From Candidatus Aenigmatarchaeota archaeon (GTDB taxonomy: Archaea; Aenigmatarchaeota; Aenigmatarchaeia; QMZP01), in the NCBI GenBank assembly GCA_043824495.1, contig JBDRSV010000004.1, positions 1 through 30,241 of the forward strand: a DNA stretch of 30,241 nucleotides, given 5' to 3'. Position numbers and translations under genes: made by a program. Positions 3,321 through 8,493 of this stretch are shown here, piece by piece. The notes beneath the pieces were generated by a model. That model ran no database searches. It had not been told where the DNA came from and was given only the letters and a program-made list of their open reading frames with translations. Each line of letters opens with the position of its first letter. The stretch's first letter is position 1.

Positions 3321-4229
3321 TTACTTTCCTAGACACCACACCATAATACCTTTTTGTACGTGTAGTCTGTTTTCTGCCTGGTCAAGTATTATTGATTGAG
3401 GACCATCCATAACACCATCTGTTATTTCATTTCCTCTATGTGCAGGTAAATCATGCATCACAACAGCTGTTTTCTTTGCATGTTTCATGAGATCAGAATT
3501 GATTTGGTATGGAGTAAGATCTTTGATTCTCTTCTTTGCTTGTTTATCCCCCATACTTATCCATGTATCTGTGTAAACTACATCTGCATTTTTCACAGCT
3601 TCTTTTGGATTCTTTGTAATTTTGATGTCTGTGAATGATTGTATTTCTTTATCAGGTTTGTAATTTGGTGGACAACCAATAGTCATTTCTAAACCTAACT
3701 TGTTTGCTGCATACATAAGAGACTGACAAATATTATTTCCCGCATCTCCAACATAAGATAGTTTCAATCCTTCTAATTTACCGAATTTCTCTCGGAGTGT
3801 ATACATGTCAGCTAGAATTTGGCATGGGTGTAGTTTGTCTGTTAAACCGTTTATCACAGGAACTTCTGCTTTGTCTGCTAGCTCTAAAATATCATTGTGA
3901 TCAAACAATCGAGCCATGATTATATCCACATATCTACTCAGAACTTTTGCTGTGTCTCCAATTGTTTCACCGTGTCCTAACTGTATATCATGCACTCCTA
4001 GGAAAATTGCATGACCACCTAGTTGTTGCATTCCAACTTCAAATGATACACGGGTGCGTGTGGAAGGTTTTGCAAATATCATTGCTAAAGTTTTGCCTGA
4101 TAGTATATTTGATCCTTGTCCTAATCTGAGAAGATTTAGGTTATTTTTCTTTAATCTTTCTGTAACACCAAAAATATACTTAATTTCATCTAGCTTCAGA
4201 TTGTCAATAGAAAGGAAATCTCTTTTCAT
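3321..4229 (-). CDS. argF: Ornithine carbamoyltransferase (ArgF/ArcB family)
   Basis: PSTRTRVSFE carbamoyl-phosphate motif, HPCQILAD, YVGDAGNN and DTWISMG; HDLPAHRG replaces the usual HCLPAHRG. Confidence 0.92.
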   Translation of the reverse strand: MKRDFLSIDNLKLDEIKYIFGVTERLKKNNLNLLRLGQGSNILSGKTLAMIFAKPSTRTRVSFEVGMQQLGGHAIFLGVHDIQLGHGETIGDTAKVLSRYVDIIMARLFDHNDILELADKAEVPVINGLTDKLHPCQILADMYTLREKFGKLEGLKLSYVGDAGNNICQSLMYAANKLGLEMTIGCPPNYKPDKEIQSFTDIKITKNPKEAVKNADVVYTDTWISMGDKQAKKRIKDLTPYQINSDLMKHAKKTAVVMHDLPAHRGNEITDGVMDGPQSIILDQAENRLHVQKGIMVWCLGK

Positions 4230-4339: not shown

Positions 4340-4426
4340 ATGAAGTTTGCCCTCGTTCCGATTTTAGTGCTTAGCCTTGTAGTATTCGTATCTGGTTGTA
4401 CGACCGGTCAACCCGCCGATCCTTAA
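4340..4426 (+). CDS. 28-aa micro-lipoprotein or truncated lipoprotein remnant (not in ORF track)
   Basis: MKFALVPILVLSLVVFVSGCTTGQPADP* is a signal peptide plus VSG-C lipobox-like motif. The frame continues after TAA as PATTGSEKLNMEKK* to 4471. Confidence 0.5.
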   Translation: MKFALVPILVLSLVVFVSGCTTGQPADP

Positions 4427-4483
4427 CCAGCTACTACAGGCTCAGAGAAACTTAATATGGAGAAGAAGTGACTAAGTAAATGG

Positions 4484-5212
4484 GTGAAGAAGTTGGACAG
4501 ACAAAGTGTAATATTTTTGAATTCAGTGGCATTTGTTCTAGGGTTTACAATAGTTTTCTCTTTAGTTGGAGTTTTACTCCAGACTGTGTTATCAAGTATA
4601 GCTTTTGATGCAAGTAATGCTTTCAGAACAGTTGGTGGAGTAATCATAGTTATATTTGGTTTGGTGTTAACGGCAGCAATTAAATACAGAATACCTTTCC
4701 TATCAAGTGATCATAAGATAAAAGTTAAGAAATTTAATAACAGCTATATCAGTTCTTTTGTGTTTGGTGTAGCTTTTGCAATTGGTTGGACACCTTGTGT
4801 GGGTCCAATATTAGGTGCAATATACACACTAGCTGCTACGTCTCCTGGAGCTGGATTCTTGCTATTATTTGCTTACTCTCTTGGAATAGGAGTGCCATTC
4901 TTAATAGCAGGTATGTTCACATCTAGAGTTTCTGTGTTCCTCGAGAAGTCACAAAATGTTCTCAAATATTTCAATATAATAGGTGGCATATTACTGATTA
5001 TAATAGGATTGCTTGTATTTTTCAACTATTTAGGAATAATAGCTTCCTTTTTTGTAAGCGCTGAGGGTGCTGTTGATGTTTCAGGACAGCTTAACTTCTT
5101 AATAGCTTTCATAGCAGGAATAGTCACATTTATCTCGCCTTGTATATTGCCTTTACTGCCTGCATTTTTTTCATACATGGCAGGAACTACAGTGACAGAG
5201 GTTAAGAAATGA
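4484..5212 (+). CDS. ccdA: Cytochrome c biogenesis/thiol-disulfide transporter CcdA, circularly permuted
   Basis: FVLGFTIVF, FAIGWTPCVGPIL, AYSLGIGVPFL and GGILLIIIG are present. The normally N-terminal AFIAGIVTFISPCILPLLP helix is at the C-terminus. GTG start as called by the ORF track. Confidence 0.88.
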   Translation: MKKLDRQSVIFLNSVAFVLGFTIVFSLVGVLLQTVLSSIAFDASNAFRTVGGVIIVIFGLVLTAAIKYRIPFLSSDHKIKVKKFNNSYISSFVFGVAFAIGWTPCVGPILGAIYTLAATSPGAGFLLLFAYSLGIGVPFLIAGMFTSRVSVFLEKSQNVLKYFNIIGGILLIIIGLLVFFNYLGIIASFFVSAEGAVDVSGQLNFLIAFIAGIVTFISPCILPLLPAFFSYMAGTTVTEVKK

Positions 5213-6231
5213 GAGTAGAATACATCGTATTCGGAGTTATTATAGTAGGAGTGATAGTCTTGTCTCTATTCAACTTTGGTGGCGGAGGTTCGAATTATAC
5301 GAACCAGGGAACAGCACCAGATCTTGTAGGAATATCTGGTTGGATAAATACAGAACCCTTAAGTTTAGATCAACTTAGAGGTAAGGTTGTTTTGATTGAC
5401 TTCTGGACATACAGTTGCATAAACTGTATAAGAACTTTACCACACTTGAAAGGTTGGCATGAAAGATATTCTGATGATGGTTTGGTTATCATAGGTGTAC
5501 ATACACCAGAATTTGAATTCGAGAAAGATTATAATAATGTGAAAGCCGCTGTAGAGAATTATGGTCTGGAGTATGCAATAGCTCAGGATAATGACTATGC
5601 TACTTGGCAAGCTTATGGTAATAGATACTGGCCTAGGAAATACATACTAGACGCACAGGGAAATATCAGATATGATCATATAGGTGAAGGCGGATATGAA
5701 GAGACGGAAAGAGTTATACAGGATTTACTCAAAGAAGCTAATTATCAAATAAATGAAACAATTGGAAGCTCAGATTCTGGACCTGGCCTGAGACCAATAG
5801 GATTTACTCCTGAATTATATTTTGGATATAATTTTGCAAGAGCTCCTCTAGGCAATCCAGAAGGATTGTCACCAGGAGGTACAGTGGATTATCAGAAGAT
5901 AGATGTCACACAACCAAATATAATCTATTTAGAAGGTCAATGGACAAACGGTCCAGATGGTATGACAGCTGTTGGAAATGGTAAGGTCTTCTTACGCTAC
6001 ACAGCAAAGAGTGTAAATATAGTGGCTGGTGGTAGTGGAAACGCAAAGATTCTAGCAGATGGAAATGTTTTATCTGAAACTAATGTAGGAACTGATGTAA
6101 ATCAAGATTCTTCAATTGATGTGACAGGCAGAAAATTGTATAACATCGTCTCAACTGTTAATTATGAATCTCATTTATTAGAAATACAAGCAGAAGACGG
6201 CTTTGAGATTTATACATTTACTTTTGGTTAA
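5209..6231 (+). CDS. Membrane-anchored DipZ-type thioredoxin (TlpA-like redoxin plus DipZ C-terminal domain)
   Basis: N-terminal anchor; LIDFWTYSCINCIRTLP, IGVHTPEFEFEK, NRYWPRKY, HIGEGGYEETE, TPELYFGY and RKLYNIV...FEIYTFTFG are DipZ hallmarks. ATGA overlap with ccdA. Confidence 0.88.
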   Translation: MRVEYIVFGVIIVGVIVLSLFNFGGGGSNYTNQGTAPDLVGISGWINTEPLSLDQLRGKVVLIDFWTYSCINCIRTLPHLKGWHERYSDDGLVIIGVHTPEFEFEKDYNNVKAAVENYGLEYAIAQDNDYATWQAYGNRYWPRKYILDAQGNIRYDHIGEGGYEETERVIQDLLKEANYQINETIGSSDSGPGLRPIGFTPELYFGYNFARAPLGNPEGLSPGGTVDYQKIDVTQPNIIYLEGQWTNGPDGMTAVGNGKVFLRYTAKSVNIVAGGSGNAKILADGNVLSETNVGTDVNQDSSIDVTGRKLYNIVSTVNYESHLLEIQAEDGFEIYTFTFG

Positions 6232-6495: not shown

Positions 6496-7440
6496 TTATT
6501 TAATTATTGTGGTTCCAGCTTTACCTTCTAGGGATTTCTCTAGTGAGTTGAAATCAGTTATTATGACCTTCTTGCCTCCCTTTTCTAAGTACTTAATAGC
6601 TGCTCTTATTTTAGGATCCATACTACCTGAGGCAAAATGACCCTCCTTTTCATATTTCTTGATGTCTTTCAGTTTGACTTTTCCCAGTTTTTCTTGATTC
6701 GGTTTTTTGTAATTTAGATAAACTCCATCCACATCAGTTAAGATGATAAAAATATCAGGTTTAATTGTTTCAGCTAGTTTAGCTGAAGCTAGATCTTTGT
6801 CTATTACAGCATCTATTCCTTCATAGCCTTTGGGGCCTTTAATTACAGGAATACCTCCACCACCCGCAGCAAGAATAACTGTTCTAAAATTAATTAGTTT
6901 TTTTATTGTTTTTATTTCAATAATTTTTATTGGTTTAGGAGATGGTACAACACGCCTGTATCCGTTTCCCACGTCAATAAAAACATGTCCTTTTTTCTTT
7001 AGTTTCTCAGCATGTTTTTTTGTATAGAAAGGACCTACAGGCTTAGTTGGGTTTTTAAACGCCTGGTCATTCTTGTCTACTAATATTTGTGTGATAATTG
7101 AAACTACTGGAATACTAATATTCTGTTTATTTAACTCGTTAATTAGTGTTTGTTCGATCAAATAGCCCAACTGACCTTGAACTTCTGCATCCAGAACATT
7201 TAAGGGCATTGGAGAAACAGTATCTTTTGCTATCTCATTCTGAAGAATAAGAGAACCGACTTGTGGTCCACTGCCGAAAGTAATTATCAATCTCAAATTT
7301 CTATTTCCTTTGAGTATATTAACAATAGATTTGCTTGTTTTTTTTATATTTTGAATCAAATCATTATACTCCACTATATTTTTAGATGTTGTAAGAGAAT
7401 TCCCACCCAAAGCGATAACTGCTATTTTCATTATTATCAT
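6496..7440 (-). CDS. arcC: Carbamate kinase
   Basis: VIALGGNSL, GPQVG, KPVGPFY, YRRVVPSPKP, GGGGIPV, AVIDKD, LTDVDGVY and GSMDPKI. The true start may be the second Met (7431). Confidence 0.92.
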   Translation of the reverse strand: MIIMKIAVIALGGNSLTTSKNIVEYNDLIQNIKKTSKSIVNILKGNRNLRLIITFGSGPQVGSLILQNEIAKDTVSPMPLNVLDAEVQGQLGYLIEQTLINELNKQNISIPVVSIITQILVDKNDQAFKNPTKPVGPFYTKKHAEKLKKKGHVFIDVGNGYRRVVPSPKPIKIIEIKTIKKLINFRTVILAAGGGGIPVIKGPKGYEGIDAVIDKDLASAKLAETIKPDIFIILTDVDGVYLNYKKPNQEKLGKVKLKDIKKYEKEGHFASGSMDPKIRAAIKYLEKGGKKVIITDFNSLEKSLEGKAGTTIIK

Positions 7441-7446
7441 CTTCTA

Positions 7447-8493
7447 TTATTTCAAACGAACTCGTGTTTTTAGTGAATGGTCTTTAAAATATAATGCTCT
7501 GTTAATATGTATTGGTTTGTTGCAATAAGGCAAGATCACATCATCAATAAATTTTGGCCAAGATTTCATAGTAAATCTTAATAAAGTGGATTTACTTATT
7601 CCTGTGTACACCATTCCATTATTTTTAGTTATTTTATACTTTCTAATTCTAGTATTCACTCTTATCGAATATTTTTTGTTTAGGTGTTCAATAAAAGAAT
7701 TAAACCATGATTTACCTTCTGTTTGCTCTACTCCTATTCTATCTGGTGCTCCTTTTCGCAATATAAAATAACCATCTGCATCAAAAAAACCCGCTGTGAA
7801 TGCATTGTCTAAGAGTGGAATAGACCATATTGTTTCTAATGTGATTCTAAAAACCTTTTTATTTTTAAAAAGGTTAGAAAATGCTGACCAATAAAAATAT
7901 ATGCGCCATGCAGAAACATCTTTGTGTTTACGATCCAACTCTCTATCTCTTTTATCATAGTATTTGACCAGAACTTTTCTATCCCCTAAATATTTTCCAA
8001 GCTGTAACGCCTTTGGATAAATTCTATCAAGAAAATCGTAAGATCCGCCTCCTGCTACATATATTTTTCTGTTGTCAACATGACCATCACCTAGTATAAG
8101 ACCGATAAAATATGCAAAAAGAGGGTTAACATTGACATAAAATGCTCTAAAAAAGTCATTACTCATCTTGTTATATCTAGTATGTTTTACTTCGTGTTTT
8201 TCAATGTCTAAAGTAGTAATAATTATAGATTTTTTAAATCCTTTATAATAAGCAGATTTTAACTCGTATCTTTTATACCATTGATGTAAAACATGTCTGT
8301 TCTTTCCGAGTAGTCTACCTATAGTAGCAGGTGTTAAACCATCAGAAGCAGCTTTTCTAAGGACTTTTTTCATTTTACCTTTACCAAGTTTTTGAGTTCC
8401 ATTTCCTAAAAATCTTTCTATTTGATTAATTCTATGATTTTTGATAAAGAATATGGTTCTCTTATCAAAGAGTCTAAATATGTTTCCAGACAT
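7447..8493 (-). CDS. Free-standing two-motif LAGLIDADG endonuclease-like protein with N-terminal HTH
   Basis: Motif 1 FAYFIGLILGDGH, motif 2 AFTAGFFDADGY, HTH-like GLTPATIGRLLGKNRHVLHQWYKRY; very Lys/Arg-rich; preceded by an SD-like GGAGAT. Confidence 0.8.
   Translation of the reverse strand: MSGNIFRLFDKRTIFFIKNHRINQIERFLGNGTQKLGKGKMKKVLRKAASDGLTPATIGRLLGKNRHVLHQWYKRYELKSAYYKGFKKSIIITTLDIEKHEVKHTRYNKMSNDFFRAFYVNVNPLFAYFIGLILGDGHVDNRKIYVAGGGSYDFLDRIYPKALQLGKYLGDRKVLVKYYDKRDRELDRKHKDVSAWRIYFYWSAFSNLFKNKKVFRITLETIWSIPLLDNAFTAGFFDADGYFILRKGAPDRIGVEQTEGKSWFNSFIEHLNKKYSIRVNTRIRKYKITKNNGMVYTGISKSTLLRFTMKSWPKFIDDVILPYCNKPIHINRALYFKDHSLKTRVRLK

What the first reader, a model, noticed from the sequence alone, without database searches (positions are those of the whole stretch)
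4484..5212. Circularly permuted CcdA: catalytic helix 1 moved to the C-terminus
Canonical CcdA/DsbD-beta begins with AGxxSFxSPCxLP (Cys 1), followed by FVLGF, then WTPCxGP (Cys 2), AYxLG and a final GxLLI helix. Here the order is TM2-TM3-TM4 (WTPC105VGP)-TM5-TM6, then the linker FVSAEGAVDVSGQLN, then TM1 (AFIAGIVTFISPC220ILPLLPAFFSYMAGTTVTEVKK-stop). Both catalytic Cys and their Pro motifs are intact. The new ends (MKKLDRQ... and ...TEVKK) are the two halves of the basic cytoplasmic loop after TM1, and the old N- and C-termini, both expected outside, are joined by a short linker. The permutation is therefore topologically coherent. The stop overlaps the next ATG (ATGA), and no TM1-like sequence exists upstream, which argues against an assembly accident. 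I know of no described natural permutant of this transporter, but I cannot search.
Basis: partly seen in the sequence, partly recalled or inferred. Interest (0 to 1): 0.9.

Follow-up and report, generated by a model that had tools for sequence, protein, structure and literature searches.

The report
Circularly permuted CcdA membrane reductase
This archaeal gene encodes the membrane electron carrier CcdA with its first, cysteine-bearing helix moved to the end of the chain; the rearrangement is real, is conserved in many tiny uncultured archaea and bacteria, arose more than once, and appears in no paper I could find.

Summary
The ORF at 4484/4493-5212 matches Thermus CcdA (PDB 5VKV) in two pieces in swapped order: TM2-TM6 first, TM1 last. 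Both catalytic cysteine motifs are intact (WTPC, TGT 4796-4798; SPCILP, TGT 5141-5143).

It is not a misassembly. All full-length sequences among the 120 closest database proteins (62-81% identical) have the same order, as do 52 of the 80 best species-representative genomes. These span Aenigmatarchaeota, Micrarchaeota, Woese-/Nanoarchaeota, Nitrososphaerales and CPR/Patescibacteria.

The nearest canonical CcdA is 52% identical over TM2-6 and 56% over TM1, so the C-terminal helix is a true TM1. The cut lies in the cytoplasmic TM1-TM2 loop, and the charge bias fits an N-in/C-in topology.

An AU test rejects a single origin for all permuted forms (p about 1e-7). The DPANN/CPR family that holds this window is compatible with one origin.

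Permuted and canonical genes are followed by the same DipZ-like membrane-anchored thioredoxin gene, so the job is probably the ordinary one: exporting reducing power. I found no cytochrome c assembly gene in the 80%-complete genome.

No searched paper describes the permutation. This scan has already noted it on other DNA (44 notes, at least 42 genomes). The likely start codon is TTG 4493, not GTG 4484.

The parts
4340..4426 (+). 28-codon ORF encoding only a signal peptide with a lipobox (…FVSGC…). It is probably the stub of the thioredoxin-lipoprotein gene that precedes permuted ccdA in close relatives.
   Evidence: Sequence read. In L003, L006, L007 and L008 the gene just upstream of ccdA starts with a similar lipobox signal peptide. 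The L003, L006 and L008 genes (213-227 aa) were scanned and carry a Thioredoxin domain. Homology of the stub is judged by eye only.
4483..4487 (+). GGTGA Shine-Dalgarno-like motif 5 nt upstream of TTG 4493
   Evidence: Read directly from the sequence. Function not tested.
4493..5212 (+). Permuted ccdA gene (239 aa from TTG 4493; 242 aa if GTG 4484 is used). The stop TGA is at 5210-5212.
4493..5056 (+). Core equal to canonical TM2-TM6 (residues 1-188), including the WTPCVGP motif with Cys102 (TGT 4796-4798).
   Evidence: Aligns to 5vkv_A 41-211 and to canonical P0124 52-229 at 52% identity. The AF2 model superposes on 5vkv with Z 7.4 over 175 residues, model 3-187.
5057..5095 (+). TM6-TM1 linker (SAEGAVDVSGQLN) joining the former C- and N-termini, predicted to lie outside the cell.
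   Evidence: It has no K/R and 2 D/E here. Across 90 permuted relatives the mean net charge is -0.8. The linker length differs by clade: HMM-envelope gaps of 8-11, 16-17, 17-23 and 25-28 residues.
5096..5209 (+). Relocated TM1 (residues 202-226, SPCILPLLP motif with Cys217, TGT 5141-5143) plus the basic cytoplasmic tail ending in KK.
   Evidence: Aligns to 5vkv_A 3-35 and to P0124 2-42 at 56% identity, E 5e-14. A208 G209 F213 S215 P216 C217 L219 P220 P223 A224 are invariant in 50 relatives.
5209..6231 (+). Translationally coupled partner gene. It encodes an N-terminal membrane anchor, a TlpA/ResA-like thioredoxin fold (WTYSCINC) and a DipZ-type C-terminal domain.
   Evidence: Pfam Thioredoxin_10 at 1e-30, AhpC-TSA, Redoxin and Thioredoxin_8. 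The same gene follows both permuted and canonical ccdA in related loci.

Best explanation
The gene encodes a genuine, functional, naturally circularly permuted CcdA. This is the six-helix DsbD-family membrane protein that passes reducing equivalents from the cytoplasm to the outside through a Cys-Cys pair buried in the membrane. The chain is cut in the cytoplasmic TM1-TM2 loop, and the old external C- and N-termini are joined by a 13-residue external linker. The order is therefore TM2-3-4-5-6-TM1 and both ends lie in the cytoplasm. Shown: the permuted order, its conservation, its several origins, and its fixed coupling to a DipZ-like anchored thioredoxin gene. Inferred: the fold re-forms with Cys102 (TM4) facing Cys217 (relocated TM1), and electrons flow from thioredoxin reductase to a cytoplasmic thioredoxin, then to the CcdA Cys pair, the CxxC of the downstream thioredoxin-like protein, and finally extracytoplasmic substrates. 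Because no cytochrome c assembly gene was found and a VKOR oxidase is present, the likely role is disulfide isomerisation or repair of surface proteins and not cytochrome c maturation. The most economical origin is tandem duplication with in-frame fusion followed by loss of both ends. No intermediate was found.
For: Two swapped local hits to solved CcdA 5vkv and to the nearest canonical homologue P0124 (52% over TM2-6, 56% over TM1). Pfam DsbD_TM is above its cut-off. 119 of the 120 closest 90%-identity clusters carry WTPC near residue 102 and then SPC near residue 217; the 120th is a truncated entry. Profile order classification of the 80 best GTDB species loci permuted, and 18 of the 150 best 50%-identity clusters. 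7 of 121 sampled genomes of the window's phylum carry the permuted form. The Cys/Pro motifs are invariant. K+R bias: N-tail +1.0, loop 3-4 +4.2, loop 5-6 +3.0, C-tail +1.0, against loop 2-3 +0.3, loop 4-5 0 and the linker -0.8. The AF2 model has pLDDT 73.6, and its only clear PDB match is CcdA 5vkv (Foldseek TM 0.52; Z 7.4, rmsd 4.5 A, 175 residues, next best Z 4.8). A DipZ-like thioredoxin gene lies directly downstream of most permuted and most canonical loci. The genome has a TrxR-like gene (290 bits, full length), a VKOR gene and no PF01578 match. Several origins: strongly supported branches force at least 4 changes, and the AU test rejects one clade with dlnL 312.9, p 1e-7.
Against: There is no biochemical evidence. 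The distance between the two cysteines in the model could not be read, and sequence-order-dependent structure alignment cannot place TM1. Only a weak candidate for a small cytoplasmic thioredoxin was found (21.5 bits, below the cut-off). The genome is 80% complete, so absence of cytochrome c maturation genes is not proven. No tandem-duplicate intermediate turned up among 120 longer homologues.
Confidence: 0.85

Rival explanations
1. The permuted chain does not close on itself. Instead it works as a domain-swapped dimer, with the C-terminal TM1 of one chain completing the TM2-6 core of the other, or it uses an otherwise altered transfer mechanism.
For: The TM6-TM1 linker in this clade is short (13 residues here; HMM-envelope gaps of 8-11 residues in the Aenigmat-/Micrarchaeota clade). 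Intramolecular packing of TM1 was not verified. AF2 confidence is moderate.
Against: The monomer model folds as a compact six-helix bundle whose TM2-6 part superposes on monomeric CcdA. Other permuted clades tolerate linkers of 16-28 residues and more, which fits a simple loop. Solved CcdA 5vkv is a single-chain entry.
Confidence: 0.07
2. The permuted protein has left the reductant-export job and does something else, for example acting as a small-molecule or anion exporter as the database label 'sulfite exporter TauE/SafE' suggests, or as an ArsG-like permease.
For: NCBI names several close homologues TauE/SafE family. The best NCBIfam hit by E-value is ArsG. DsbD belongs to the LysE transporter superfamily (PMC4608589).
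Against: No TauE Pfam match appears at E up to 1. ArsG scores 49 bits against a cut-off of 200. Both redox cysteines and their proline motifs are invariant. The gene stays translationally coupled to a CxxC thioredoxin-like partner, exactly as its canonical cousins do.
Confidence: 0.05
3. It is an assembly, binning or gene-calling artefact, or a decaying pseudogene.
For: The window comes from a fragmented 29-contig genome.
Against: The same architecture occurs in well over a hundred independent assemblies from NCBI, JGI, ENA and Logan, some on contigs of 0.5-0.6 Mb. The frame is open, and conservation is strongest at the catalytic motifs.
Confidence: 0.01

Closest known systems
CcdA of Thermus thermophilus (PDB 5VKV) and canonical CcdA generally (Pfam PF02683 DsbD_TM; the CcdA class of the DsbD family, PMC3322552)
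   Same: Six helices, the 3+3 internal repeat (third HSP), both membrane-embedded redox cysteines in SPCxLP and WTPCxG motifs, and sequence and predicted-fold similarity. A partner thioredoxin-like protein lies outside the membrane.
   Different: The chain order is TM2-3-4-5-6-1 and not 1-6. Both termini are predicted to be cytoplasmic and not external. TM1 is tied to TM6 by an external linker and is no longer tied to TM2.
Canonical CcdA of related DPANN and CPR genomes (e.g. P0124; loci L042, L059, L066, L041)
   Same: About 50% identity in both pieces. The same downstream DipZ-like gene is present, in the same kinds of organisms.
   Different: These keep the normal order. They sit in the same strongly supported part of the tree as the permuted clades, so the permuted form is derived from within them.
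DipZ of Mycobacterium tuberculosis (CcdA fused to a thioredoxin domain and the Thioredoxin_10 C-terminal domain; known to me from the literature, and Pfam PF17991 names that domain)
   Same: The same three modules are present: a CcdA membrane domain, a TlpA-like CxxC domain and a Thioredoxin_10 domain.
   Different: Here they are two genes joined by an ATGA overlap, and the membrane module is permuted. The split is not a consequence of the permutation, because canonical relatives are split too.
Other permuted CcdA lineages (P0158 Dehalococcoidia; P0182, sister to an Anaerolineales canonical protein; P0145; P0170/P0256) and the half-swapped form P0231 (TM4-6, TM1, TM2-3)
   Same: The same kind of rearrangement, with cuts in cytoplasmic loops and the old termini joined.
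   Different: They have separate origins by the AU test, longer linkers, and in P0231 a different cut point.

Membership tests
CcdA / DsbD_TM (PF02683) | Significant match to the family profile above the curated cut-off | tested here: met
   54.8 bits against a cut-off of 27.1. 5vkv_A at E 4.3e-33.
CcdA / DsbD_TM (PF02683) | Two membrane-embedded redox cysteines, one in xSPCxLP (TM1) and one in WTPCxG (TM4) | tested here: met
   C217 lies in ISPCILP and C102 in WTPCVGP. Both cysteines are invariant in 50 relatives.
CcdA / DsbD_TM (PF02683) | Six transmembrane helices built from a 3+3 internal repeat | tested here: met
   Helices are seen in the AF2 model. The internal-repeat HSP aligns TM4-6 with TM1-3 (third alignment).
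CcdA / DsbD_TM (PF02683) | Colinear order TM1 to TM6 with both termini outside the cell | tested here: not met
   Hits are in swapped order. The charge bias indicates N-in/C-in. This is the one feature that makes it a variant.
CcdA / DsbD_TM (PF02683) | Fold like solved CcdA, with the two cysteines adjacent in the membrane core | tested here: inconclusive
   TM2-6 superpose on 5vkv (Z 7.4, 175 residues). The placement of TM1 and the Cys-Cys distance could not be read with the tools.
CcdA / DsbD_TM (PF02683) | Works with an extracytoplasmic thioredoxin-like acceptor | tested here: met
   By gene context only. A coupled downstream anchored CxxC protein is present and is conserved in related loci.
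CcdA / DsbD_TM (PF02683) | Transfers electrons from cytoplasmic thioredoxin across the membrane | not testable with these tools
   This needs genetics or biochemistry.
DipZ-type fusion protein | CcdA, thioredoxin and Thioredoxin_10 modules in one polypeptide | tested here: not met
   There are two ORFs with an ATGA overlap. Fused relatives exist but are rare, e.g. P0280.
TauE/SafE sulfite exporter (the label on database homologues) | Match to the TauE family profile | tested here: not met
   Only DsbD_TM and DsbD_2 are listed at E up to 1.
ArsG permease (NF040495) | Score above the NCBIfam equivalog cut-off | tested here: not met
   49.2 bits against a cut-off of 200.

The most novel reading that the evidence does not exclude
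The repeated, independent appearance of the same permutation is adaptive and not neutral. Starting the chain with an ordinary N-in signal-anchor helix and inserting the catalytic TM1 last would remove the need to translocate an N-terminal tail. It could also change which cytoplasmic reductant docks. This would suit ultra-small DPANN and CPR cells with reduced insertion and thioredoxin machinery. A stronger version is that the permuted chain functions as a domain-swapped dimer. Either would make it a natural experiment on how helix order governs folding and mechanism of a polytopic redox transporter.
Probability: 0.12. Interest if true: 0.8.

Novelty: new variant of a known kind. Interest (0 to 1): 0.6.

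Why it matters
To my knowledge, natural circular permutations of multi-pass helical membrane proteins are rarely documented. Here one occurs in a protein with a solved structure and a simple, assayable chemistry. It is conserved across many genomes and arose several times, so the CcdA fold clearly tolerates moving a catalytic, half-buried helix from first to last in the chain and flipping both termini to the cytoplasm. That gives membrane-protein folding and insertion studies a natural matched pair: canonical and permuted forms about 50% identical, in the same lineages, with the same partner. It also bears on the proposed elevator-type mechanism, because TM1 is now tethered on the opposite side of the membrane. 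In practice, databases label these proteins as ordinary CcdA or as TauE/SafE exporters, and profile hits cover only part of the protein. Annotation and topology predictions for this subfamily are therefore misleading.

Tried and rejected

Complex prediction with the TM2-6 core and the TM1 segment as two chains gave no verdict (score 0.02). That is neither support nor evidence against.

The first AF2 run, on a shallow alignment, was poor (pLDDT 60.9). A second run on a 150-row alignment was usable.

An AU test on a 141-row set did not finish in three runs. It was replaced by an 85-row set.

The search for tandem-duplicate or TM1-at-both-ends intermediates found none among 278 near-length and 120 longer homologues or in 80 loci.

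Literature: four full-text searches for permutation with CcdA, DsbD or the LysE superfamily found nothing relevant. The one hit containing all the terms cites GFP permutation only. The Bushweller 2020 review is not held.

Readings rejected: misassembly, a convergent C-terminal helix, TauE/SafE or ArsG identity, and cytochrome c maturation as the main role. The last is weakly rejected only, because no PF01578 match was found in an 80%-complete genome.

Full report
**What is in the sequence**

ORF 4484-5212 on the + strand is open, and its TGA overlaps the ATG of the next ORF as ATGA at 5209-5212.

Pfam places residues 4-176 on positions 39-212 of the 219-position DsbD_TM profile. The score is 54.8 bits against a cut-off of 27.1.

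Against all PDB chains, the protein hits T. thermophilus CcdA (5vkv_A, E 4.3e-33) in two pieces in swapped order:
- residues 203-235 align to chain 3-35 (TM1 with SPCxLP);
- residues 12-191 align to chain 41-211 (TM2-TM6 with WTPCxGP).

A search of the whole 1.01 Mb, 29-contig, 80%-complete genome with PF02683 finds only these two pieces, both in this ORF. A TM1 profile scanned over all six frames of the window finds no second TM1.

The start is probably TTG 4493 and not GTG 4484. It coincides with the ATG of the homologues, and a GGTGA motif lies 5 nt upstream. In that numbering the protein has 239 residues and the cysteines are C102 (TGT 4796-4798) and C217 (TGT 5141-5143).

**It is a real gene**

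The 120 best database clusters are 62-81% identical over 88-100% of the length and come from NCBI, JGI, ENA and Logan assemblies. All carry WTPC near residue 102 followed by SPC near residue 217, except one entry that is cut off before the SPC motif.

In an alignment of 50 of these sequences, the relocated helix keeps A208 G209 F213 S215 P216 C217 L219 P220 P223 A224 invariant.

I built profiles of the TM2-6 core and of TM1 and classified sequences by the order of their hits. The results were:
- among the 150 best representatives of 50%-identity clusters, 18 are permuted, 122 are canonical and 10 are fragments;
- among the 80 best loci from one-genome-per-species GTDB contigs, 52 are permuted.

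The permuted loci carry the labels Aenigmatarchaeota, Micrarchaeota, Woesearchaeota, Nanoarchaeota, Nitrososphaerales and many CPR/Patescibacteria lineages. A few labels are probably binning errors.

In a sample of 121 genomes of the window's own phylum, 19 have a CcdA. Seven of them (the window's included) have the colinear permuted form, most others the canonical form.

**The last helix is TM1 and the cut is in the TM1-TM2 loop**

BLASTP against the nearest canonical protein, P0124, gives three alignments:
- 52% identity over TM2-6 (7-186 to 52-229);
- 56% identity over TM1 plus the start of the loop (198-238 to 2-42, E 5e-14);
- a weak third alignment that is the known 3+3 internal repeat.

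The new C-terminus (…TEVKK) and the new N-terminus (MDRQSV…) are therefore the two sides of the cytoplasmic loop. The former C- and N-termini are joined by SAEGAVDVSGQLN.

Across 90 permuted sequences the net K+R minus D+E charge is as follows:

| Segment | Net charge |
|---|---|
| N-tail | +1.0 |
| Loop 2-3 | +0.3 |
| Loop 3-4 | +4.2 |
| Loop 4-5 | 0 |
| Loop 5-6 | +3.0 |
| TM6-TM1 linker | -0.8 |
| C-tail | +1.0 |

**Structure**

With a 150-row alignment, AlphaFold2 gives pLDDT 73.6 and pTM 0.67.

The only clear PDB match is CcdA 5vkv. Foldseek gives probability 1.00 and TM 0.52. VIA-align gives Z 7.4, rmsd 4.5 A and 175 residues, model 3-187 on chain 35-210, with the next best Z at 4.8.

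These aligners follow chain order, so they show that TM2-6 keep the CcdA arrangement but cannot place TM1. I could not read coordinates, so the Cys-Cys distance remains untested.

**Origins**

On an 85-row tree built from TM1 plus core columns, the permuted state needs 13 changes, and strongly supported branches alone force at least 4.

Holding all 37 permuted rows together costs 312.9 log-likelihood units, with p-AU 1e-7. The permutation therefore arose, or reverted, several times.

The window sits in a 99%-supported clade of Aenigmat-/Micrarchaeota and Nitrososphaerales sequences, where the gap between the core and TM1 HMM envelopes is 8-17 residues. A second, 97%-supported clade holds Woese-/Nanoarchaeota and CPR sequences with gaps of 17-28 residues.

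Forcing these two clades together gives a slightly better likelihood than the free search, with p-AU 0.68. One origin for this DPANN/CPR family is therefore likely, followed by spread between archaeal and bacterial ultra-small lineages.

Other permuted lineages fall among canonical proteins elsewhere in the tree:
- P0158, labelled Dehalococcoidia;
- P0182, next to an Anaerolineales protein;
- P0145;
- P0170 and P0256.

P0231 shows a different cut, with order TM4-6, TM1, TM2-3.

No intermediate with TM1 at both ends, or with two cores, was found.

**Function**

The next gene (5209-6231) encodes a membrane anchor, a TlpA/ResA-like thioredoxin fold with WTYSCINC, and the DipZ-type Thioredoxin_10 domain.

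A homologue of this gene lies directly downstream, on the same strand, of most permuted and most canonical ccdA genes in the 80 loci. The permutation therefore did not change the partner. The two-gene arrangement is also not a consequence of the permutation.

Close relatives also have a thioredoxin lipoprotein gene upstream. In the window only a 28-codon lipobox stub remains, at 4340-4426.

Elsewhere in the genome I found:
- a full-length thioredoxin-reductase-like gene;
- a VKOR gene;
- only a weak small-thioredoxin candidate;
- no CcsA/CcmF-type cytochrome c assembly gene (the genome is 80% complete).

My reading is an ordinary CcdA relay. Electrons pass from cytoplasmic reductant to the C102-C217 pair, then to the external CxxC protein, and on to surface proteins. 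This is the reducing arm opposite VKOR, and not cytochrome c maturation. It is inferred from family knowledge (PMC3322552) and gene context, not shown.

**Novelty**

Full-text searches for permutation together with CcdA, DsbD or the LysE superfamily returned nothing relevant. Much subscription literature is not in the library.

Database names for these proteins are 'cytochrome c biogenesis protein CcdA' or 'sulfite exporter TauE/SafE'.

This scan has already recorded the same phenomenon on other DNA: 44 notes in at least 42 genomes, with the same conclusions. The present window is therefore a further member of an apparently undescribed but common subfamily, not a new discovery within the scan.

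I rate it a new variant of a known kind, with moderate to high interest for membrane-protein folding and evolution.

Noticed in passing
window 4340-4426 (+): A 28-codon ORF encodes only a lipoprotein signal peptide (MKFALVPILVLSLVVFVSGC…). In close relatives (L003, L006, L007, L008) the same position starts with a similar lipobox signal peptide, and in L003, L006 and L008 it holds a 213-227 aa thioredoxin lipoprotein with DGTM(V/I)KP repeats. The window seems to have lost all but the stub.
   Followed up: partly
P0231 (274 aa), P0251 (183 aa), P0230 (360 aa): Other rearrangements of the same fold. P0231 has the order TM4-6, TM1, TM2-3 (halves swapped). P0251 has only TM4-6 plus TM1. P0230 is permuted, with about 115 extra residues between TM3 and TM4.
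   Followed up: partly
P0280 (475 aa) and P0279 (553 aa): Rare fused forms of the permuted CcdA. P0280 continues into a redoxin domain; this may be a read-through of the ATGA overlap or a true fusion that keeps the partner's anchor helix. P0279 (Micrarchaeota) has a 313-residue N-terminal extension of unknown nature.
   Followed up: no
L034, L045, L056, L057, L061, L064, L081 versus L026-L038: The permuted CcdA of CPR/Patescibacteria bacteria nests inside a clade of Woese-/Nanoarchaeota sequences (97% support). This suggests transfer of the gene pair between ultra-small archaea and bacteria. Several MAG labels in these clades (Methanosarcinales, Acidoferrum, Saccharimonadales) look like binning errors.
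   Followed up: partly
window 3321-4229 (-) and 6496-7440 (-): The ccdA pair is flanked by an ornithine/aspartate carbamoyltransferase (OTCace domains) and an amino-acid-kinase family protein that looks like carbamate kinase. These may be parts of an arginine deiminase-type ATP-yielding pathway.
   Followed up: partly
window 7447-8493 (-): A free-standing 348-aa ORF with an HTH and a LAGLIDADG-like domain. It may be a homing-endonuclease-type gene lying next to the carbamate-kinase-like gene.
   Followed up: no
G000 contig C18: 2875-3762, 9657-10058, 16175-16333: A thioredoxin-reductase-like gene, a VKOR gene and a weak 104-aa thioredoxin candidate lie within about 14 kb of one another on another contig. 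This may be a redox gene neighbourhood.
   Followed up: no
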